Under the pieces are notes generated by a model. That model was not told where the DNA came from. It searched no databases and saw only the letters and a list, made by a program, of their open reading frames with translations. From NCBI GenBank assembly GCA_018901755.1, contig JAHIDZ010000021.1, positions 2,467-66,466 of the forward strand: DNA of 64,000 nucleotides, read 5' to 3'. A program made the translations under genes and the position numbers. Positions within the stretch are counted from its first letter, which is position 1, and each line of letters begins with the position of its first letter. Shown here one piece after another: positions 10,217 through 17,805 of the stretch. The stretch is from Nanobdellota archaeon (GTDB taxonomy: Archaea > Aenigmatarchaeota > Aenigmatarchaeia > Aenigmatarchaeales > Aenigmatarchaeaceae).

Positions 10217-11494
10217 TTATTTCTTAGAAATCTTCTTTAATCCGCCCATATATGGTTGTAAAACTTTAGGAATATTGATAGAACCATCTTTATTTTGATT
10301 GTTTTCCATGACAGCTATCAGCGCTCGAGGTGTAGCAACTACAGTATTATTTAGAGTATGCGCATAGTATTTTCCATCTTTCCCAGAAATCTTTATATTA
10401 AGCCGTCTGGCTTGAGCTTCTTCCATATTTGTCAGAGAACCTACTTCATAATATTTCTTTTGTCTTGGAGACCACGCCTCGACGTCGCATCCTTTTGCTT
10501 TTAGATCAGCCAAATCTCCTGAACATGATTCGAATATTCTTATCGGAACATTTAATGCTTTAAACACGTCTATGGTATATTTCAACATTTTGTCATACCA
10601 TTTGTAAGAATCTTCGGGTTCGCAAATTATAATCATTTCCTGTTTGTTAAATTGATGAACGCGATAAAATCCTCTTTCTTCAAGTCCGTGCGCGCCGACT
10701 TCTTTTCTAAAACAAGTTGAAAATCCTGTTATCTTAAATGGTAAATCTTTTTTATTCAAAGTCTTATCCATAAATAAACCAATTAAAGGATGTTCTGAAG
10801 TTCCAATCAAATATAGATCTTCTCCTTCTATCTTGTACATCATTGCATCTCTTTCAGCAAAAGACATAACACCTTCTACAACTTTCCGTCTGATCATAAA
10901 TGGTGGTTCCATATATTCGAAACCTTGTTTAATCATATAGTCTCTAGCAAATGCATTCATTGCTACACTTAATCTAGCCAAATCACCTTTCAGAAAATAA
11001 AATCCTTTACCTGACGTTTCTCGTGCTGTTTCAAAATCCGCACCACCTAAACGTTCGGCCAATTCGGCATGATTAAATATTTCATATTTAGGTACAATTG
11101 GTTTTCCTATTTTCTTTATTTCTACGTTATCAGATGCATCTTTACCAATAGGAACTGAAGAATGAATTATATTTGGAATTCTTTTTTGAATATCAAGAAT
11201 ATCTGTTTTAAGCAGCAATGACTTTTTCTCTATCTGAAATATCTGTTCTGGAATATTTTTCGCTTGCATCATAAGTTCAGTTGCATCTTTTCCTTTCTTT
11301 TTTAATTCGGATATTTGTTGGCTAACTTCATTTCGTTCATATCTTAATTTTTCAGCCTGCTGTAAAAAAATCCGATATTCTTCATCTTTCTCAATAATAT
11401 CGTCTACCATTTCAAGCAATTCGTTCTTGAATTTTTTCTTAATGTTTTCTTTTACTAAATCGACATTTTCTCTAATAAATTTTATGTCAAGCAT
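10217..11494 (-). CDS. serS: Seryl-tRNA synthetase
   Basis: 425 aa. It has the N-terminal coiled-coil arm (MLDIKFIRENVDLVKENIKKK..) and a class II core (FRKEVGAHGLEERGFYRVHQFNKQEM; TLNNTVVATPRALIAVMENNQ). Confidence 0.95.
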   Translation of the reverse strand: MLDIKFIRENVDLVKENIKKKFKNELLEMVDDIIEKDEEYRIFLQQAEKLRYERNEVSQQISELKKKGKDATELMMQAKNIPEQIFQIEKKSLLLKTDILDIQKRIPNIIHSSVPIGKDASDNVEIKKIGKPIVPKYEIFNHAELAERLGGADFETARETSGKGFYFLKGDLARLSVAMNAFARDYMIKQGFEYMEPPFMIRRKVVEGVMSFAERDAMMYKIEGEDLYLIGTSEHPLIGLFMDKTLNKKDLPFKITGFSTCFRKEVGAHGLEERGFYRVHQFNKQEMIIICEPEDSYKWYDKMLKYTIDVFKALNVPIRIFESCSGDLADLKAKGCDVEAWSPRQKKYYEVGSLTNMEEAQARRLNIKISGKDGKYYAHTLNNTVVATPRALIAVMENNQNKDGSINIPKVLQPYMGGLKKISKK

Positions 11495-11498
11495 TTAA

Positions 11499-12461
11499 TC
11501 ACTTATTATATAATTTTCTTATTGGAGTTATTATTTCAATCAATTCTACAGTAATACAGTTCTTCAGATCTAAAGGATGGAGTTTTCCTTCTAAATAAGT
11601 TTTCTCAAGTTCTTCATAATTCTTAAATTCGATATTTCCACCAAATTTATCTAAACGCTTAATTGAAATCTTTTTTCTAAGTGGAAAAATTATTAATTTT
11701 GAAATTTGCAACATAGGATTATCTTGAACTATTTTCTCAGGACAGTATGCATTCTTTATTATTTTAGTAATCTCCTCGTCACTATCAACTACAGATATTC
11801 CTGAACCTGGAATCGATTTAGACATTTTTTGACCAGGACCTTTCAATGAAGTAATAAGCGGTGTATGAACTGCAATAAAACTATGTCCTAAAACATCCTT
11901 AAGTTCTCTACCTGCCATATGAATTTTTCTCTGTTCCATTCCACCATAAGCAACATCACATTTAAGATATTTTATATCAGCTATCTGCATTAAAGGATAC
12001 CATAATTGAGAGACTGTTGCATTTTCTATATCTCTTGCTATCTCCTGCATACTTCTTAATCCACGATTTATAGTAATTTCTTGTGCCATGCTCATTACAT
12101 CAGAAACATATTCTTTAGTAAATTCAAAATCAGAACCTAAAACTATTTCAGCATCAAGTCCGATTGCTTTAACTGTTTTTCTCCACGCATCAACATCTTT
12201 TGCTATTTTATCTTCCTGACCTTTTCTATTAAGCAATGCATGAATATCTGCAAGTAAAAACTTTACTTTAAACCCGGCCTTAGCGAAATCCATAAGCTTA
12301 ATTACAGTTACAAAGTGCCCTAAATGCATAGGACCGCTCGGTTCATACCCACAATAAACAATTGGCTTCTTTTTAGTTTTAAGAAGATTAGCCAACTCTT
12401 CATCTGTTACAACTTCTACAACATTTTGTTTTATCAACGCTATCTTATCATCTACGTCCAT
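11499..12461 (-). CDS. tyrS: Tyrosyl-tRNA synthetase, short archaeal/eukaryal type
   Basis: 320 aa. YCGYEPSGPMHLGHF is the HIGH-type motif and KMSKS is present. There is no bacterial C-terminal S4 domain. Confidence 0.9.
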   Translation of the reverse strand: MDVDDKIALIKQNVVEVVTDEELANLLKTKKKPIVYCGYEPSGPMHLGHFVTVIKLMDFAKAGFKVKFLLADIHALLNRKGQEDKIAKDVDAWRKTVKAIGLDAEIVLGSDFEFTKEYVSDVMSMAQEITINRGLRSMQEIARDIENATVSQLWYPLMQIADIKYLKCDVAYGGMEQRKIHMAGRELKDVLGHSFIAVHTPLITSLKGPGQKMSKSIPGSGISVVDSDEEITKIIKNAYCPEKIVQDNPMLQISKLIIFPLRKKISIKRLDKFGGNIEFKNYEELEKTYLEGKLHPLDLKNCITVELIEIITPIRKLYNK

Positions 12462-12500
12462 AACTAAACATTTATTAAGATGAATACATAAAGGTTTCTC

Positions 12501-15062
12501 ATGAAGATAGATTGTTTAGGAGGGTTCAGAGAGGTTGGCAGAAATGCAGTTTTACTAGATTCTACTGAAAAGATACTATTAGACTTTGGATTAAACGTAG
12601 AAGACACAGAACCACCAATTATGCCTAAAAAGGTAGATCATTGTTTTATTGCTCATACGCATTTAGATCATGTTGGATGCGCGCCAATGTTAAACAAATT
12701 TAATTGCCCAATATACGCAACTTCTTGCACCTTTGACCAAAGTGACTTATTACTAAAAGATTCACTAAAGGTTGCTAGATTAAAGAGTAGAGATCTTCTA
12801 TTTAGTGAAAACGATATTCTGAAAATGAAAAAACAGCAAAAAATAATCACATATGGTCAGGAAGTAAAAACAAATAAAGCTAAAATTGAAGTTTATAATG
12901 CAGGACACGTTCCAGGTTCAGCAATATATATCATTAACATTGATGGCAAAAGAATTCTTTATACCAGCGATTTCAATACACAAGATTCAAGATTATTAAA
13001 AGGTGCAAATGTAAAAGATTTTAAGAACATTGATGTTCTTATTATTGAATCGACTTATGCTTCTAAAGAACATCCGGATAGAGCACAAACTGAAAAAGAA
13101 TTATATCGAATGGTTTCTGAAACAGTAGAAAACGGTGGAATCGCTTTAATACCTGCTTTTGCAGTTGGTCGTAGCGCTGAAGTTCTAATGGCATTAAATG
13201 CGTTTAAACCAAAATTCAAAATTTATATGGATGGAATGGCAAGAGCGGCAACTGAAATATATTTGAAATACCCAGAATTATTAAGAAATAAAAAAGATTT
13301 TAACAGCGCGCTAAATAAAGTAGATATGATAACTAATAATGAACAAAGACGTGAAGTAATGAAAGAACCTTGCGCAATAATTACAACGGGCGGATGTTGC
13401 GTTCATCCAGACACGTATATTCAGACAGCGACCGGGGAAATTACGAAAGCTATTGACACAAATACATCGTTTATATCACTTGACATGAAAAATTTCACTC
13501 AGCAATCTGCAATTTCAACAAAAAAATGGAAAAAAATATCTCCTGAAATGTTGTATCTCGTCAGAACAAGAACAAATAATATAAAAATGACAGGAGATCA
13601 CGAATTATTCGCGCTTGATGATCAGCTTAATATCATCTCTAAAAAATGCTCAGATCTTAAGAAAGATGATTATTTTTTAAATGCAAAAAAAATAGAATTT
13701 GTAGGCAAATCGCAACCGCTTGACAATAAAATAATTAATTCTAAAATTGCCAAAAAAATAAGGCTGCCAAATAAAACAACGCCTGATTTCTGTCAATTTT
13801 TAGGATATTTAATAGGAGACGGAAATCTTCACCAAAAGAAAAAAATAAGGCTAACCGATAAAGATATACAGTTGCTAAAATTCTATAAACATTTGGGAGA
13901 GAACATTTTCGGCCTTGCCGGAAAGATAAAAATCGGTTCTAGAAAAAGACTGACATTTTATTCCGTCATGCTTTATAGATTCCTTGAAAAAATGGACATA
14001 CACAAAGGCAGAAACAGAATCATTCCGGAATTCATACATAAATGTCCAGAAAATGAGCTAGCTTCTTTCCTAAGAGGACTTTTTGACGCAGAAGGAACTG
14101 TTGGCGCTGATAATAACAGGTCGATCGCCCTTAGTTCGCATAGCAAGAACATAATCAATATAACGCATATGCTTCTCCTAAGATTTGGAATATTATCAAG
14201 CGTGAATATAACTCATAAAAGGATTAAGAACAAGGTATTCGAAGGTTATATTTTATCAATACAAAACCCAGATTCAATAAGAAAATATAAAAAATACATA
14301 AATTTCAGCTCAAGAAAAAAGAAAGATAAACTTGAGAAATTATCAAACATCATTAAAGACGGCTGGAACCATTTTGACATAGTTCCAGTAAAGAAATATG
14401 CGTTATATAATGAACTGAAAAAATATTATAAGAAAATTCCAAAAAGCAGAATGTTTCATATTCATAAAAGCTGCGATGAATACATAACAAAATCTCAACT
14501 GATAAAATTTATTAAATTCTTTGATAGAAAAAATAAGGAGTTAGACAAATTCATCAATAAATTAAAGATCCTTACGAATAATAATATCTTTTGGAATAAA
14601 ATATTGGAAAAAACTGAATTCCAGAGCGATACTGAATTTGTGTATGACTTTACAATACCCGGCTATTCTAATTATATTGCAAACGGATTGCTTACTCATA
14701 ACTGCGACGGCGGCCCTGCTATACAATATATTAGAAATCTCTGGAGCAACAACAAGAATTCTCTTACCTTTGTCGGTTTTCAAATACCTAAAACAGCTGG
14801 ACGCTACCTGTTAGATACAGGACGTTTCGTAAACGAGGAAACAGACCTAAAATTAAAAATGCAAGTGAACTCATTAGACTTCTCAGCGCATGCTGATCGT
14901 AATGATTTATTCAAATTTATCAATAAAATACAGCCGGAGAAAGTAGTTTGTATGCACGGCGATAATTGCCAGAGATTTGCGCAGGAATTAAGAAGTCGTG
15001 GATTTAATGCAATAGCTCCTAAAAACGGAGAAACAGTAGACACAAACAGATGGAAAGAATAA
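12501..15062 (+). CDS. Metallo-beta-lactamase/beta-CASP ribonuclease (aCPSF2-like, 418 aa after splicing) interrupted by a 435-aa intein
   Basis: HTHLDH (MBL motif 2), IIESTYASKEH (beta-CASP motif A), FSAHADRNDL (motif B) and VCMHGD (motif C). The host sequence is broken at AIITTGGC / CDGGPAIQY. Confidence 0.9.
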   Translation: MKIDCLGGFREVGRNAVLLDSTEKILLDFGLNVEDTEPPIMPKKVDHCFIAHTHLDHVGCAPMLNKFNCPIYATSCTFDQSDLLLKDSLKVARLKSRDLLFSENDILKMKKQQKIITYGQEVKTNKAKIEVYNAGHVPGSAIYIINIDGKRILYTSDFNTQDSRLLKGANVKDFKNIDVLIIESTYASKEHPDRAQTEKELYRMVSETVENGGIALIPAFAVGRSAEVLMALNAFKPKFKIYMDGMARAATEIYLKYPELLRNKKDFNSALNKVDMITNNEQRREVMKEPCAIITTGGCCVHPDTYIQTATGEITKAIDTNTSFISLDMKNFTQQSAISTKKWKKISPEMLYLVRTRTNNIKMTGDHELFALDDQLNIISKKCSDLKKDDYFLNAKKIEFVGKSQPLDNKIINSKIAKKIRLPNKTTPDFCQFLGYLIGDGNLHQKKKIRLTDKDIQLLKFYKHLGENIFGLAGKIKIGSRKRLTFYSVMLYRFLEKMDIHKGRNRIIPEFIHKCPENELASFLRGLFDAEGTVGADNNRSIALSSHSKNIINITHMLLLRFGILSSVNITHKRIKNKVFEGYILSIQNPDSIRKYKKYINFSSRKKKDKLEKLSNIIKDGWNHFDIVPVKKYALYNELKKYYKKIPKSRMFHIHKSCDEYITKSQLIKFIKFFDRKNKELDKFINKLKILTNNNIFWNKILEKTEFQSDTEFVYDFTIPGYSNYIANGLLTHNCDGGPAIQYIRNLWSNNKNSLTFVGFQIPKTAGRYLLDTGRFVNEETDLKLKMQVNSLDFSAHADRNDLFKFINKIQPEKVVCMHGDNCQRFAQELRSRGFNAIAPKNGETVDTNRWKE
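13398..14702 (+). mobile_element. Full-size intein with LAGLIDADG homing-endonuclease domain
   Basis: Block A CVHPDTYIQ starts at codon 300 (TGC 13398). Block B is MTGDHELF. The LAGLIDADG motifs are FLGYLIGDGNL and FLRGLFDAEGTV. The C-terminal block YIANGLLTHN ends at 14702 and is followed by the +1 Cys (TGC 14703). 1305 nt = 435 codons, in frame. Confidence 0.9.
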
Positions 15063-15063
15063 A

Positions 15064-15465
15064 TTATCTACTAAACCTTCTTTCTACTTTCTTTTGCATT
15101 ACAATATTAGCAACGCCATTTTCAAATTTAGCTTTAACAGAATTTGGATCTATTTCGTGTGGAAGTGAAACAATTTTTCTTTCAGCTTCACCAGACATTT
15201 CTTCTTTATAGTATCCGTCTTTTGCCTGAATTGCTCTACCCTCTTTCTGACCAGTTACTTCAAGTGTTTTAGAAGTTGCATTTATTCTAACCTGATCTTT
15301 TCTATAATCACCAAGTCTTACAACAGCTGTTATAAACCCGCCAGCATCTTGAATTTCAATTTCTATTTCTTGTTTCAAAGGTATTTCTATAGCTTCGGAT
15401 TTCTTAAAGAAGTTCTTCATTCCTCTTAGAGGTTTCTCAAACCACAACTTTACTTGGTCTTTCAT
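15064..15465 (-). CDS. hsp20: Small heat-shock protein, Hsp20/alpha-crystallin family
   Basis: 133 aa. The C-terminal alpha-crystallin pattern is RKIVSLPHEIDPNSVKAKFENGVANIVMQK. Confidence 0.85.
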   Translation of the reverse strand: MKDQVKLWFEKPLRGMKNFFKKSEAIEIPLKQEIEIEIQDAGGFITAVVRLGDYRKDQVRINATSKTLEVTGQKEGRAIQAKDGYYKEEMSGEAERKIVSLPHEIDPNSVKAKFENGVANIVMQKKVERRFSR

Positions 15466-15532
15466 ATCTATATTTTAGATTCAGATAGCTTTATATACTT
15501 TCTGGATAAACAGAAAAATAAGACAGAGGTCG

Positions 15533-15670
15533 ATGAAGATGACTAAAAAAAGAAAAATTGTGAAAAAATTTGAAGAAGAAGAACCAGCAATAGATGAAAA
15601 TAGTGAACCGCCAGTAATTGATGACGTTGTTAAAAGTAGCGATGACGACGATGAAGACGACGACTGGTAA
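15533..15670 (+). CDS. Unlisted 45-aa ORF: basic N-terminus, poly-acidic C-terminus ending in Trp
   Basis: MKMTKKRKIVKKFEEEEPAIDENSEPPVIDDVVKSSDDDDEDDDW, stop TAA at 15668-15670. GAGGT (15526-15530) lies 2 nt upstream of the ATG. The ORF fills the otherwise empty hsp20-aglB intergenic space. Confidence 0.4.
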   Translation: MKMTKKRKIVKKFEEEEPAIDENSEPPVIDDVVKSSDDDDEDDDW

Positions 15671-15708
15671 ACCCCTTGTTTTAAATCTTTTTATATTTAC
15701 TTTTGTAA

Positions 15709-17805
15709 TTGTTCATAGGTGTTAGTCTGAATATTAAGAATTTTTTTATTAAGTATTGGTGGGCATTTGCACTTGCAGCAATATTTTTTATATCATATTA
15801 TGTTAGAAGTATAAATATAATACCAGATAGAATACTTTCTTTTGATCCAATGTTTCAGTTTAGATTCACGAAATATTTTGCAGATTGGGGGGTTTTGCCA
15901 AATTGGGATGAATTAACATATTATGTCGGTAGACCAATCAACAGTACTTTACTGGGGCCTCTTATGGCTTACATAACATCAGCAATATACTGGCTAGTAA
16001 AAGGCTTTGGTATAAGTCTTCTTACAGTCTGTTCCTATGCATCTGCAATATATGGAGCGATGATAGTTTTTCCTGCTTTTCTACTTGGTAGAGAAATATC
16101 CAATAAATATGGAGGTCTGCTCGCTGCTGGACTGATTGGAACCGCTCCACAGATACTCATAAGAACATTTGGAAGTTCTTACGATACAGATCAACTGGCA
16201 TTATTTTTCATCGTATTAACAATTTATCTTGGAATTTATGCTCTTAGAAAAAAAACAATAACAAGTTATGCAATGGCATTTACTGGATTTCTTGCATTCA
16301 TGTTTGCATGGGGTCTATTTATCTATTCATTTATCATGGTTGCAATATATACTATAACACTTCTTGTGTTAACAACTCTAATGAGAAAAGAAGATATTAA
16401 AGAAGGTATAAAATCAAAACCGAATTTAAAAGAAAATTTCAAACATGCTATGATTGGATTCAAAAAAGAATTTTTAATATTGACTGGATTGGCGGCTTCA
16501 TTGATAGGCGTAGGTTATCTTCTGAAAACAGACATATTCATTCAATCACTAATTTCCATAATTGGATTTGCTGGAAAAGCTGAATCATGGATAGTAAACA
16601 TATCTATTGCCGAATTACAAGCATTTAATATATTCAACCTAAACGGATGGATGCTTGCAATGGGTCAATTTGTTACAGGGGTGGTCTATATTGACATGGC
16701 AGTATTCTTAACATTTGTGTCATTCATATTTTTCGGATTATACGCAGGATATAAAAAAGATATTAATAAAATATCTATACTATTAACACTTGCACTAATC
16801 GCAGTTGCTACAACTTTCAGAGGAATTAGATTTACAGAATTCTCATCAGCACTATTCATAATAGTTATCGGCGCCGGATATGGTTATTTTGTAGATTGGT
16901 CTAAAAAGAACGATTTCATGAAAGTATTTGCAATCGGTGTTGGTATCTGCATAATGTTTATAGCAGTGGGTGTTTCAATGCAACTAGGTACGCAATTAGG
17001 TCCTGACATGAATTCAAATTGGGATGGTGCTTGGAATTTCATAAAAACACAAACACCGCAATTATCTATAATTGGAACATGGTGGGACCCAGGACATATG
17101 ATAGCTAGTATTGCTGAGCGAAGAAACTTTGCAGACGGAGCGCACTGCCCAGAGCCATGTATGTACAACATTAATGATCGTATAGTAGACCTTGGTAAAA
17201 TAATGGCTACTACGAATGAAGATGAATCATTGCAATTGATTAAAAAATATCAAGGCGATTCTCCTAAAGTCTATTGGATAGCATCAGATGATTTGATAGG
17301 AAAATTCCAGTGGCTACAATACTTTGGAACAGGATGCGACGCTAGATCAGATGCAAGTTGTCCATTGTATTATCAAGCCGCGCGCTCTGATATAAAATAC
17401 GATGAACAAGGACAAGCAAGCGCAGTATACTTTGGAAATATAATAATTTTACCTACAAACATACCAATTCCTATTATAACACAAGGAAAAAGCGCAGCAG
17501 TTGTCAAAGAAGTAATATTTTATGATAACGAAGGAAATATACAAACCATTGATTTATCTGATTCAATAGAAATGATTAAACCTTTCGGGGCTGATTTAAA
17601 ACTAAATATAGTTGATGATGTTGTTCCAATAACAGTCTGGATACAAAAACAATATGGATATGTAATTATAATACCACAGACACTTAGAGAGGCAGTCTTT
17701 ACTAAAATGTATTTCATGCGTGGACAAGGATTAAAATGTTTTAATTTGGTATATGATAATGAACAGGTCAAAATATTTGAAGTAAATACGGCGTGTAAAT
17801 CATGA
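15709..17805 (+). CDS. aglB: Archaeal oligosaccharyltransferase AglB (STT3 family)
   Basis: 698 aa and multi-TM. The first-loop acidic motif is SFDPMFQFRF and the catalytic WWDxG motif is TWWDPGH. The track start is a TTG, so the exact start is uncertain. Confidence 0.9.
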   Translation: MFIGVSLNIKNFFIKYWWAFALAAIFFISYYVRSINIIPDRILSFDPMFQFRFTKYFADWGVLPNWDELTYYVGRPINSTLLGPLMAYITSAIYWLVKGFGISLLTVCSYASAIYGAMIVFPAFLLGREISNKYGGLLAAGLIGTAPQILIRTFGSSYDTDQLALFFIVLTIYLGIYALRKKTITSYAMAFTGFLAFMFAWGLFIYSFIMVAIYTITLLVLTTLMRKEDIKEGIKSKPNLKENFKHAMIGFKKEFLILTGLAASLIGVGYLLKTDIFIQSLISIIGFAGKAESWIVNISIAELQAFNIFNLNGWMLAMGQFVTGVVYIDMAVFLTFVSFIFFGLYAGYKKDINKISILLTLALIAVATTFRGIRFTEFSSALFIIVIGAGYGYFVDWSKKNDFMKVFAIGVGICIMFIAVGVSMQLGTQLGPDMNSNWDGAWNFIKTQTPQLSIIGTWWDPGHMIASIAERRNFADGAHCPEPCMYNINDRIVDLGKIMATTNEDESLQLIKKYQGDSPKVYWIASDDLIGKFQWLQYFGTGCDARSDASCPLYYQAARSDIKYDEQGQASAVYFGNIIILPTNIPIPIITQGKSAAVVKEVIFYDNEGNIQTIDLSDSIEMIKPFGADLKLNIVDDVVPITVWIQKQYGYVIIIPQTLREAVFTKMYFMRGQGLKCFNLVYDNEQVKIFEVNTACKS

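What the first reader, a model, noticed from the sequence alone, without database searches (positions are those of the whole stretch)
12501..15062. Full-size LAGLIDADG intein splitting the conserved glycine-rich motif of an aCPSF2-like beta-CASP ribonuclease
Seen: the host protein has HTHLDH and beta-CASP motifs A/B/C. Between motifs A and B, the sequence TTGGC is followed by a 435-codon insert. The insert carries intein blocks A (CVHPDT), B (TGDH), two LAGLIDADG motifs and the terminal HN, followed by Cys +1 (CDGGPAIQY). Established: inteins home into highly conserved sites of essential, mostly replication/recombination/nucleotide-metabolism proteins. Inference: an RNA-processing beta-CASP nuclease is not among the classic intein hosts I know of, so this may be a rarely or never catalogued insertion point. 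The endonuclease motifs look intact, so it may still be mobile.
Basis: partly seen in the sequence, partly recalled or inferred. Interest (0 to 1): 0.65.

Follow-up and report, generated by a model that had tools for sequence, protein, structure and literature searches.

The report
LAGLIDADG intein in archaeal beta-CASP RNase
The gene really is a CPSF-type RNA-cutting enzyme of a tiny groundwater archaeon, interrupted by a standard self-splicing, mobile protein element (an intein); the element is ordinary, but I found no paper describing this enzyme family as an intein host, although it carries inteins at six different conserved motifs.

Summary
ORF 12501..15062 (+) encodes an 853-aa precursor: a 418-aa KH-less CPSF73/aCPSF-type beta-CASP metallo-beta-lactamase RNase, interrupted by a 435-aa intein (aa 300-734, nt 13398-14702).

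- **Intein features.** It has Cys1, TxxH, two LAGLIDADG motifs with their acidic residues, terminal His-Asn and Cys+1. Pfam, a PDB profile search and an AlphaFold/Foldseek model (best match the TliVMA intein) all agree.
- **Boundaries.** Removing the intein restores a gapless alignment to intein-free orthologues and to PH1404.
- **Site.** It lies inside SGM|LxGGP, one of the two most conserved stretches of the host.
- **Not an artefact.** Both junctions occur in independent contigs of three or four groundwater runs.

The insertion point is not unique. Seven other public alleles, mostly labelled Micrarchaeota, carry a homologous intein (36-42% identity) at exactly this site. They sit in three separate host lineages, interleaved with intein-free genes. 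Archaeal aCPSF-type genes carry inteins at six sites in all. None of the source names I read calls the whole protein intein-containing, and I found no paper on such hosts.

Verdict: a new member of a known kind, of modest interest. Splicing and homing activity are inferred, not shown. The 'aCPSF2' label is unproven.

The parts
12501..13397 (+). N-extein (aa 1-299). It holds the MBL domain with motif 2 HTHLDH (nt 12654-12671), motif 3 NAGHVPGS (12897-12920) and motif 4 YTSDF (12960-12974). It also holds beta-CASP motif A IIESTY (13041-13058). It ends ...AIITTGGC, with the unusual -1 Cys299.
   Evidence: -1 is Met in 112/121 intein-free orthologues
13398..14702 (+). Intein, 435 aa (aa 300-734), 50.9 kDa, class 1.
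   Evidence: Pfam PF14890 E=1.2e-22. AF2 model pLDDT 85.8, pTM 0.88. Foldseek top hits TliVMA intein 7QSS (TM 0.71), PI-PfuI, PI-PkoII and PI-SceI. PDB profile hit 7QSS E=2.5e-34.
13398..13712 (+). N-terminal splicing (Hint) half. It contains block A CVHPDT (Cys1, nt 13398-13415) and block B TGDH (nt 13590-13601).
13773..14357 (+). LAGLIDADG endonuclease core (intein residues about 126-320). Motif 1 is FLGYLIGDG (nt 13797-13823, Asp440). Motif 2 is FLRGLFDAEG (nt 14067-14096, Glu531).
   Evidence: Pfam PF14528 E=7.8e-20. 57/195 columns are invariant among 7 same-site alleles. The model shows alpha-beta-beta-alpha-beta-beta-alpha elements. Foldseek matches to I-DmoI, I-Tsp061I and I-SceI.
14358..14582 (+). 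Poorly conserved, mainly helical region between the endonuclease core and the C-terminal splicing half (intein residues about 321-395). Some related inteins carry an XRE-type HTH domain; by inspection of their sequences it lies N-terminal to the first LAGLIDADG motif, so it is not the equivalent of this region.
   Evidence: PF01381 in P0002/P0011, sequences
14583..14702 (+). C-terminal splicing half. It contains block F VYDFTIPGYSNYIANG (nt 14640-14687) and block G LLTHN (nt 14688-14702; His733, Asn734).
   Evidence: TIGR01443 intein_Cterm at aa 713-735
14703..15062 (+). C-extein (aa 735-853) plus the stop codon. It starts with the +1 Cys735 in CDGGPAIQY. It holds beta-CASP motif B FSAHAD (nt 14880-14897), motif C CMHGD (nt 14949-14963) and the RMMBL domain.

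Best explanation
A canonical class-1 intein carrying a double-motif LAGLIDADG homing endonuclease is inserted in frame into the single-copy gene for a KH-less, CPSF73/aCPSF-type beta-CASP metallo-beta-lactamase ribonuclease. The organism is a low-GC DPANN archaeon from groundwater.

**Inferred mechanism**
1. The 98-kDa precursor is translated.
2. Cys300 makes the N-S acyl shift.
3. The thioester is passed to Cys735 (+1).
4. Asn734 cyclises, assisted by His733 and the TxxH/block F residues.
5. An S-N shift joins ...TTGGC to CDGGP..., giving the 47-kDa active RNase and a free 51-kDa intein.

The intein splits one of the most conserved loops of the host (SGM|LxGGP), so the unspliced precursor is probably inactive and splicing is obligatory.

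The free intein, or its ancestors, cuts intein-less alleles at this motif. It is then copied in by double-strand-break repair. This would explain why homologous inteins sit at exactly this site in three separate host lineages, interleaved with empty-site genes.

**Shown:** the anatomy, the fold, the exact site, homology to same-site inteins, the patchy distribution, and that the insertion is real DNA.

**Inferred:** splicing, nuclease activity, and present-day mobility.
For: - **Domains and blocks:**
- **Boundaries:** gapless alignment of the spliced host to PH1404/3AF5 and to 121 intein-free orthologues.
- **Fold:** AF2 pLDDT 85.8. Foldseek top hits are TliVMA, PI-PfuI, PI-PkoII and PI-SceI. 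The PDB profile search gives 7QSS at E=2.5e-34.
- **Site conservation:** the 10-aa window around the site is in the 1.7th percentile of entropy.
- **Same-site alleles:** P0121/L003, P0270, P0271, P0145, L002, L004/L083 and L082 all read AGM|CLHPD...VHN|C(D/Q)GGP. They are the window intein's best BLAST partners (249-311 bits). The next best, an intein at another site, scores 223 bits.
- **Patchiness:** the window's nearest host relatives (P0002-P0007) have an empty site e and carry inteins elsewhere. The other site-e bearers fall in two other host groups next to intein-free proteins.
- **Endonuclease conservation:** the core is conserved as well as the splicing domain (mean pairwise identity 0.55 against 0.48 and 0.56), and both acidic residues are invariant.
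- **Real DNA:** both junctions lie inside independent contigs of 3-4 groundwater runs.
- **Orthologous locus:** synteny supports it.
Against: - There is no experimental or transcript evidence. No RNA run holds the gene.
- No intein-less allele of this population was seen, but contigs cannot show absence. The intein may be fixed and the endonuclease no longer needed.
- The intein's GC content (30.8%) matches the genome (32.1%), which suggests long residence rather than recent invasion.
- Intein and extein identities to the other alleles are similar (37-40% against 36-44%). Ancient vertical descent with many losses is therefore not excluded.
- The synonymous-codon signal for co-conversion of the flank is weak, because an intein-free relative also has GGCGGCCCT there.
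- Cys at -1 is unusual, and its effect on splicing is unknown.
Confidence: 0.9

Rival explanations
1. The intein is splicing-competent but immobile. It is fixed in this lineage, and its endonuclease is inactive or retained for another reason, so the element is now only an obligatory maturation step.
For: The composition is ameliorated to the host. No empty allele appears in four runs. Extein and intein divergence are similar.
Against: Both LAGLIDADG acidic residues and 57/195 core columns are invariant across seven alleles that are only 36-73% identical. Decaying endonucleases normally lose these first. The distribution across host lineages is patchy.
Confidence: 0.3
2. Conditional (redox-sensitive) protein splicing. 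The three cysteines at the junction (Cys299 at -1, Cys300 at 1, Cys735 at +1) form a disulfide trap, so the RNase matures only under reducing conditions. The intein would then act as a post-translational switch.
For: The -1 Cys is unique to the window allele: it is Met in 112/121 orthologues and in all other site-e alleles. From my own knowledge, disulfide-controlled splicing has been reported for other archaeal inteins.
Against: This is purely a reading of the sequence, and the other seven alleles lack the -1 Cys. The organism lives in anoxic or low-oxygen groundwater. No experiment is available.
Confidence: 0.08
3. An assembly chimera or mis-join places an intein from another gene inside the beta-CASP ORF.
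For: The source is a metagenome-assembled contig.
Against: Independent contigs from runs X1-X4 span the N junction (X1, X2, X3) and the C junction (X1-X4) at 99% identity or more. The frame is open across both junctions. Seven homologous alleles from other assemblies have the same architecture.
Confidence: 0.01
4. It is a non-splicing inserted LAGLIDADG or Hint-like domain that stays as a permanent insertion in the mature enzyme.
For: No observation here favours this.
Against: All the catalytic splicing residues are present and invariant in the same-site alleles: Cys1, TxxH, the block F Asp, His-Asn and Cys+1. The insertion splits the second most conserved stretch of the host, which a permanent 51-kDa insert would probably disrupt.
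Confidence: 0.02

Closest known systems
Archaeal LAGLIDADG inteins of Thermococcales: TliVMA/PhoVMA inteins (PDB 7QSS, 7QST), PI-PfuI (1DQ3), PI-PkoII (2CW7)
   Same: They share the architecture: a Hint splicing domain interrupted by a double-motif LAGLIDADG endonuclease plus accessory regions. They also share the catalytic residues: Cys1, TxxH, HN and a +1 nucleophile. Foldseek TM-score to 7QSS is 0.71, with profile E=2.5e-34.
   Different: The host is different (V-ATPase, RNR, PolB against a beta-CASP RNase). Sequence identity is only 13-24%. The organism is a mesophilic, low-GC DPANN archaeon. Activity has not been tested.
Same-site inteins in Micrarchaeota-labelled beta-CASP genes (for example GenBank MBI5036591.1 'MBL fold metallo-hydrolase'; MDP2717341.1; JGI proteins P0270 and P0271)
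   Same: The insertion point is identical (SGM|C(D/Q)GGP). The inteins are homologous (36-42% identity, best BLAST partners) and share the same blocks and the +1 Cys.
   Different: The host lineages differ: extein identity is 36-44%, and the window's nearest host relatives have this site empty. The residue at -1 is Met rather than Cys. Their genomes are richer in GC (47-52% against 32%).
Multi-site intein hosts such as haloarchaeal MCM (four sites, PMC10643990) and eukaryotic Prp8 (seven sites, bioRxiv 10.1101/502781)
   Same: One conserved nucleic-acid-processing enzyme is invaded at several conserved motifs in different lineages. Some genes carry two inteins at once, such as P0003.
   Different: The host here is a metallo-beta-lactamase/beta-CASP nuclease, not a P-loop ATPase or a spliceosome core protein. 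I found no paper describing it as an intein host.
aCPSF1/FttA (PH1404 3AF5, MTH1203 2YCB, MM0695 2XR1, 9BCT) and the KH-less groups aCPSF1b/aCPSF2 of Phung et al. 2013 (PMC3553952)
   Same: The spliced host aligns over the whole catalytic core (E=2.2e-62 to 3AF5; TIGR03675 positions 176-629). All MBL and beta-CASP motifs and the RMMBL domain are present.
   Different: It has no N-terminal KH domains and is 418 aa long. It scores below the aCPSF1 cut-off. Orthology to aCPSF2 (COG1236) or aCPSF1b was not resolved.

Membership tests
Intein (Hint-domain protein-splicing element, class 1) | Nucleophilic Cys/Ser as the first residue (block A) | tested here: met
   Cys300 in CVHPDT. It is invariant in 7 same-site alleles.
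Intein (Hint-domain protein-splicing element, class 1) | Block B TxxH | tested here: met
   T364-G-D-H367. Both the Thr and the His are invariant.
Intein (Hint-domain protein-splicing element, class 1) | C-terminal His-Asn (block G) followed by a Cys/Ser/Thr at +1 | tested here: met
   His733-Asn734 followed by Cys735. TIGR01443 matches aa 713-735.
Intein (Hint-domain protein-splicing element, class 1) | Hint fold | tested here: met
   PF14890 E=1.2e-22. AF2 model with Foldseek matches to solved inteins: 7QSS, 1DQ3, 2CW7 and 1VDE.
Intein (Hint-domain protein-splicing element, class 1) | In-frame insertion whose removal restores colinearity with intein-free homologues at a conserved site | tested here: met
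   Gapless alignment to 3AF5 and to 121 orthologues. The site is in the 1.7th entropy percentile.
Intein (Hint-domain protein-splicing element, class 1) | Autocatalytic excision and extein ligation | not testable with these tools
   This needs expression and detection of the mass shift.
LAGLIDADG homing endonuclease (double-motif, intein-borne) | Two LAGLIDADG motifs, each with a conserved acidic residue at the penultimate position | tested here: met
   FLGYLIGDG (Asp440) and FLRGLFDAEG (Glu531), invariant in 7 alleles. PF14528 E=7.8e-20.
LAGLIDADG homing endonuclease (double-motif, intein-borne) | Pseudo-dimeric alpha-beta-beta-alpha-beta-beta-alpha fold | tested here: met
   The secondary-structure order in the model fits. 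Foldseek matches I-DmoI, I-Tsp061I, I-SceI and PI-PfuI.
LAGLIDADG homing endonuclease (double-motif, intein-borne) | Site-specific cleavage of the intein-less allele, and homing | not testable with these tools
   There is only indirect support: homologous inteins at the same site in three host lineages, interleaved with empty sites.
beta-CASP metallo-beta-lactamase ribonuclease, CPSF73/aCPSF branch | MBL motifs 1-4 (including HxHxDH) and beta-CASP motifs A (Glu), B (His) and C (His), plus the RMMBL domain | tested here: met
aCPSF1 / FttA | N-terminal KH domains, and a score above the TIGR03675 cut-off | tested here: not met
   There is no KH region. The protein starts at model position 176 and scores 323 bits against a cut-off of 580.
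aCPSF2 (COG1236 group of Phung et al. 2013) | About 420 aa, core domains only, no N- or C-terminal extension | tested here: met
   The spliced host is 418 aa with no extension. The definition comes from PMC3553952.
aCPSF2 (COG1236 group of Phung et al. 2013) | Phylogenetic placement in the aCPSF2 group rather than with aCPSF1/aCPSF1b | tested here: inconclusive
   It is closer to aCPSF1 structures (215 bits) than to the KH-less bacterial beta-CASP RNase TTHA0252 (130 bits); that TTHA0252 belongs to COG1236 is my own recollection, not a tool result. JGI names for orthologues are mixed: 'Cft2 family' and 'predicted metal-dependent RNase'. No reference aCPSF2 or aCPSF1b sequences were to hand.

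The most novel reading that the evidence does not exclude
CPSF-type beta-CASP nucleases of DPANN archaea may be a previously undescribed, heavily invaded intein host: six insertion sites, each beside a catalytic or conserved motif. In the window allele, the unique Cys(-1)-Cys1...Cys(+1) junction may make splicing redox-conditional. Maturation of an RNA-processing or termination nuclease would then be switched post-translationally.
Probability: 0.08. Interest if true: 0.6.

Novelty: new member of a known kind. Interest (0 to 1): 0.38.

Why it matters
Surveys of intein hosts are dominated by replication, repair and nucleotide-metabolism proteins. The top 15 archaeal hosts in PMC4760082 include no nuclease of this family.

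A CPSF73-type RNase invaded at six conserved motifs extends the rule that inteins target catalytic motifs to the metallo-beta-lactamase/beta-CASP fold, and to RNA 3'-end processing and termination enzymes.

It also has practical consequences:
- **Annotation.** These genes are currently named 'hypothetical', 'MBL fold metallo-hydrolase' or 'homing endonuclease'. Their length can mislead orthology calls in DPANN genomes.
- **Tools.** It offers a new set of mesophilic Cys1/Cys+1 inteins and LAGLIDADG enzymes with a defined GC-rich target.

The element itself works like textbook inteins, so the biological surprise is modest.

Tried and rejected
1. **Alternative boundary.** Starting the intein at Cys299 would leave the spliced host one residue shorter than every homologue. 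Block A also aligns with CLHPD, preceded by Met, in the other alleles. Rejected.
2. **Assembly artefact.** Rejected by independent contigs across both junctions.
3. **Co-conversion footprint.** The first 14 nt of the C-extein (TGCGACGGCGGCCC) use codons that are rare for this genome (P about 0.001 from the window's codon usage). They are near-identical in all five DNA alleles. However, an intein-free relative (L084) also has GGCGGCCCT, so only TGC-GAC (P about 0.08) is specific. The signal is too weak to claim.
4. **Intein-less allele in the same samples.** No joint was found, but contigs cannot show absence.
5. **Transcript evidence.** No RNA run holds the gene.
6. **Literature.** Seven full-text searches, plus look-ups inside the 2015/2016 survey (main text; its supplements are not held), gave no paper on inteins in beta-CASP, CPSF or MBL hosts.
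7. **Junction-pattern scan of JGI metagenome contigs.** It returned only two loci, one new (L082) and one already known (L083 = L004). It missed alleles known from other sources, so it is not a census.
8. **The first word-indexed protein search.** It missed all same-site alleles. Only the exhaustive representative search found them.
9. **Other inteins in the window.** None was found by tblastn with this intein.
10. **L017.** It looked like a full-length hit but is an unrelated intein in a SAM-synthetase-like gene next to a bacterial beta-CASP gene.
Full report
**1. Observation**

The window has one long ORF at 12501..15062 on the + strand (853 aa, ATG start). No competing ORF of 80 aa or more lies on the other strand inside it. 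Pfam finds Intein_splicing (E=1.2e-22, aa 306-734), LAGLIDADG_3 (7.8e-20), Lactamase_B_6, Beta-Casp (split into two stretches) and RMMBL. NCBIfam places the intein N-terminal model at aa 300-370 and the C-terminal model at aa 713-735. The insert is 435 codons (nt 13398-14702).

**2. Boundaries and site**

The spliced product (…AIITTGGC-CDGGPAIQY…, 418 aa) aligns without a gap over the junction to PH1404/3AF5 (…IIIASSGM-LVGGPSVEY…, E=2.2e-62). It aligns equally well to other aCPSF1 and CPSF73 structures. An alignment with 121 intein-free proteins of about 420 aa, taken from the exhaustive search, gives these figures:
- Gly at position -2 in 120/121.
- Met at position -1 in 112/121.
- Leu, Met or Val at +1 in 117/121.
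- Gly-Gly at +3/+4 in 119-121/121.

The 10-residue window around the junction is in the 1.7th percentile of column entropy. Only the HxHxDH motif is more conserved. The -1 residue is an unusual Cys, and the +1 Cys replaces the Leu/Met of empty alleles.

**3. The intein itself**

Seven full-length same-site alleles share the following:
- Cys1-(V/L)-H-P-D.
- T-x-x-H.
- FLGY(L/F)xGDG and F(L/M)RGLFDAEG, with both acidic residues invariant.
- A block F Asp.
- SNY(I/V)A.
- (T/V)-H-N followed by Cys.

An AlphaFold2 model built on a 7-sequence alignment has pLDDT 85.8 and pTM 0.88. It shows a beta-rich splicing domain, split into residues 1-105 and 396-435, around an alpha/beta endonuclease core. Foldseek against the PDB returns the following:
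- The homing-endonuclease-associated TliVMA intein (7QSS, E=2e-25, TM 0.71).
- PI-PfuI, PhoVMA, PI-PkoII and PI-SceI.
- Free-standing LAGLIDADG enzymes such as I-DmoI, I-Tsp061I and I-SceI.

A sequence-profile search of the PDB agrees (7QSS at 2.5e-34). This is a textbook class-1 intein with a double-motif LAGLIDADG endonuclease. The endonuclease core is conserved as well as the splicing halves: mean pairwise identity 0.55 against 0.48 and 0.56, with 57/195 columns invariant. This pattern is expected if the nuclease is, or recently was, under selection.

**4. The insertion is real DNA**

The same sequence occurs in Logan contigs of at least four groundwater metagenome runs from several studies. 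Separate contigs span the N junction (X1, X2, X3) and the C junction (X1-X4) at 99% identity or more. A fragment of the same locus is public as GCA_018899515.1 JAHIIB010000017. Cluster mates are labelled 'Nanoarchaeota archaeon'. No intein-less joint was seen, but contigs cannot prove absence. No RNA run holds the gene.

**5. The host**

The spliced protein has all the MBL and beta-CASP motifs and the RMMBL domain. It matches the aCPSF1 model TIGR03675 in one stretch over positions 176-629 of 631. That covers everything except the KH region. The score, 323 bits, is below the 580-bit cut-off.

It is closer to aCPSF1 structures (187-215 bits) than to human CPSF73 (160 bits) or the bacterial TTHA0252 (130 bits). 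Phung et al. define aCPSF2 and aCPSF1b as KH-less proteins of about 420 aa (PMC3553952). By architecture the host fits these groups, but I could not place it phylogenetically. I therefore call it a KH-less aCPSF-type RNase and treat 'aCPSF2-like' as a loose label.

Synteny supports orthology with its nearest relatives. The window reads TyrRS | beta-CASP | Hsp20. L086 reads TyrRS…beta-CASP…RtcA. L085 reads beta-CASP | RtcA | Hsp20.

**6. Relatives elsewhere: the key result for novelty**

The word-indexed search found about ten intein-containing beta-CASP proteins, but none with the insert at this site. The exhaustive search of 1.84 billion cluster representatives found such proteins:
- P0121: 856 aa, one continuous alignment over query positions 1-847.
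- The fragments P0122, P0125 and P0145.

Their cluster mates, the scan of one genome per species and a junction-pattern scan added P0270, P0271, L002, L004/L083 and L082. All of them read …(A/G)GM|CLHPD…VHN|C(D/Q)GGP….

That makes eight distinct alleles, counting the window. The labelled ones are mostly called Micrarchaeota. Source names are:
- 'MBL fold metallo-hydrolase' (MBI5036591.1).
- 'LAGLIDADG family homing endonuclease, partial' (MDP2717341.1).
- 'putative mRNA 3-end processing factor'.
- 'Cft2 family RNA processing exonuclease'.
- 'intein/homing endonuclease' (for two JGI fragments).

These inteins are the window intein's best BLAST partners (249-311 bits, 36-42% identity). The best intein at another site scores 223 bits. 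They therefore form one site-specific intein family.

**7. Distribution**

By distance on a trimmed extein alignment, the window's nearest host relatives are P0003, P0007, P0004, P0005, P0002 and P0006. All of these have site e empty (SSGM|LEGGP) and carry inteins at other sites. The other site-e bearers fall into two further groups:
- P0121, P0271 and L004, next to the intein-free P0146.
- P0270, next to P0131 and P0135.

The pattern is patchy: the same site, homologous inteins, different host lineages. That is what homing with horizontal transfer produces. Ancient presence followed by many losses is not excluded, because intein and extein divergence are similar.

**8. A wider pattern**

Mapping all inserts onto the window's extein coordinates gives six Pfam-confirmed insertion sites in archaeal aCPSF-type genes:

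| Site | Junction | Carriers |
|---|---|---|
| d | HxHxDH\|(C/S)G | KH-bearing aCPSF1 |
| a | AGHxxG\|S | Both aCPSF1 and KH-less forms |
| f | ESTYG\|S | P0136 |
| b | FAVGR\|S | P0003 |
| e | SGM\|C | This one |
| c | DF\|SAH | P0003-P0009, P0131 |

P0003 carries two inteins. All six sites lie in low-entropy stretches, between the 1.5th and 13.5th percentile.

**9. Prior art**

Full-text searches returned nothing that describes such a host. The term pairs were:
- intein with beta-CASP, CPSF, aCPSF or metallo-beta-lactamase.
- inteins with DPANN or Micrarchaeota.

The hits use inteins as purification tags or cite the two topics separately. The large prokaryotic survey (PMC4760082) does not mention these proteins in its main text. 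Its top-15 archaeal hosts do not include them. Its supplements are not held. From memory, not tested, the classic InBase host list has no beta-CASP entry. NCBIfam has 'intein-containing' exception models for RtcB and GyrA, but none appeared for this family.

**10. Mechanism and rivals**

The best explanation is standard four-step class-1 splicing, which releases a 47.3-kDa RNase and a 50.9-kDa homing endonuclease. Splicing is obligatory because the insert splits a core motif. The rivals are:
- A fixed, immobile intein (about 0.3, a sub-case of the main explanation).
- A redox-conditional switch suggested by the unique Cys299-Cys300…Cys735 junction (about 0.08).
- A non-splicing insertion (about 0.02).
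- An assembly artefact (about 0.01).

A tempting co-conversion footprint did not hold up. The first codons of the C-extein are GC-rich and identical across alleles. But an intein-free relative shares most of this sequence.

**11. Verdict**

The call is right and the anatomy is clean. It is a new member of a known kind: an ordinary intein in a host family that the searchable literature does not describe. The site is already present, without intein-aware naming of the whole protein, in several public sequences. Interest is modest (0.38). The six-site pattern across aCPSF-type nucleases is the most reportable by-product.

Noticed in passing
Related proteins P0002-P0011, P0126-P0139, P0192, P0266, L005 (not in the window): Archaeal aCPSF1 and KH-less aCPSF-type genes carry Pfam-confirmed inteins at five further sites: HxHxDH|C/S, AGHxxG|S, ESTYG|S, FAVGR|S and DF|SAH. 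Each lies beside a catalytic motif. P0003 has two inteins in one gene.
   Followed up: partly
window 13395-13400 and 14703-14705: The -1 residue is Cys (TGT). In 112/121 intein-free orthologues and in all other same-site alleles it is Met (ATG). This gives a Cys-Cys…Cys splice junction. All three codon positions differ from ATG.
   Followed up: partly
window 14703-14716; L002, L003, L004, L082, L084: The first 14 nt of the C-extein (TGCGACGGCGGCCC, 86% GC) use codons that are rare in this 32%-GC genome. They are near-identical in all same-site alleles. However, GGCGGCCCT also occurs at the empty site of relative L084, so it is not clearly a co-conversion tract.
   Followed up: yes
P0002, P0011, P0019 (Pfam PF01381 on record); P0127, P0139, L005 (similar inserted stretch by eye): Several related inteins carry an XRE-type helix-turn-helix insertion. 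By inspection of their sequences it lies between the N-terminal splicing half and the first LAGLIDADG motif. The window intein has no such insertion.
   Followed up: no
window 10217-17805; L085, L086: The gene order TyrRS | beta-CASP | (RtcA RNA cyclase) | Hsp20 is shared with relatives. The window has Hsp20 directly after the beta-CASP gene, then an STT3/AglB oligosaccharyltransferase. The RtcA neighbour in the relatives hints at an RNA-end-processing role.
   Followed up: partly
window 1-64000: Neither Rfam (gathering thresholds) nor ARAGORN finds any RNA gene, tRNAs included, in the whole 64-kb window.
   Followed up: no
L017 (CAZYRO010000068.1, labelled Saccharibacteria): A LAGLIDADG intein sits in a SAM-synthetase-like gene directly upstream of a bacterial beta-CASP gene. 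It looked like a full-length match but is an unrelated adjacency.
   Followed up: partly
P0004-P0009, P0131 (site c): The site-c inteins form a different family. They have Ser1 (SVTPETPV…) and Ser+1 and end in GGFGGIFLHN. They share only 20-23% identity with the window intein.
   Followed up: no
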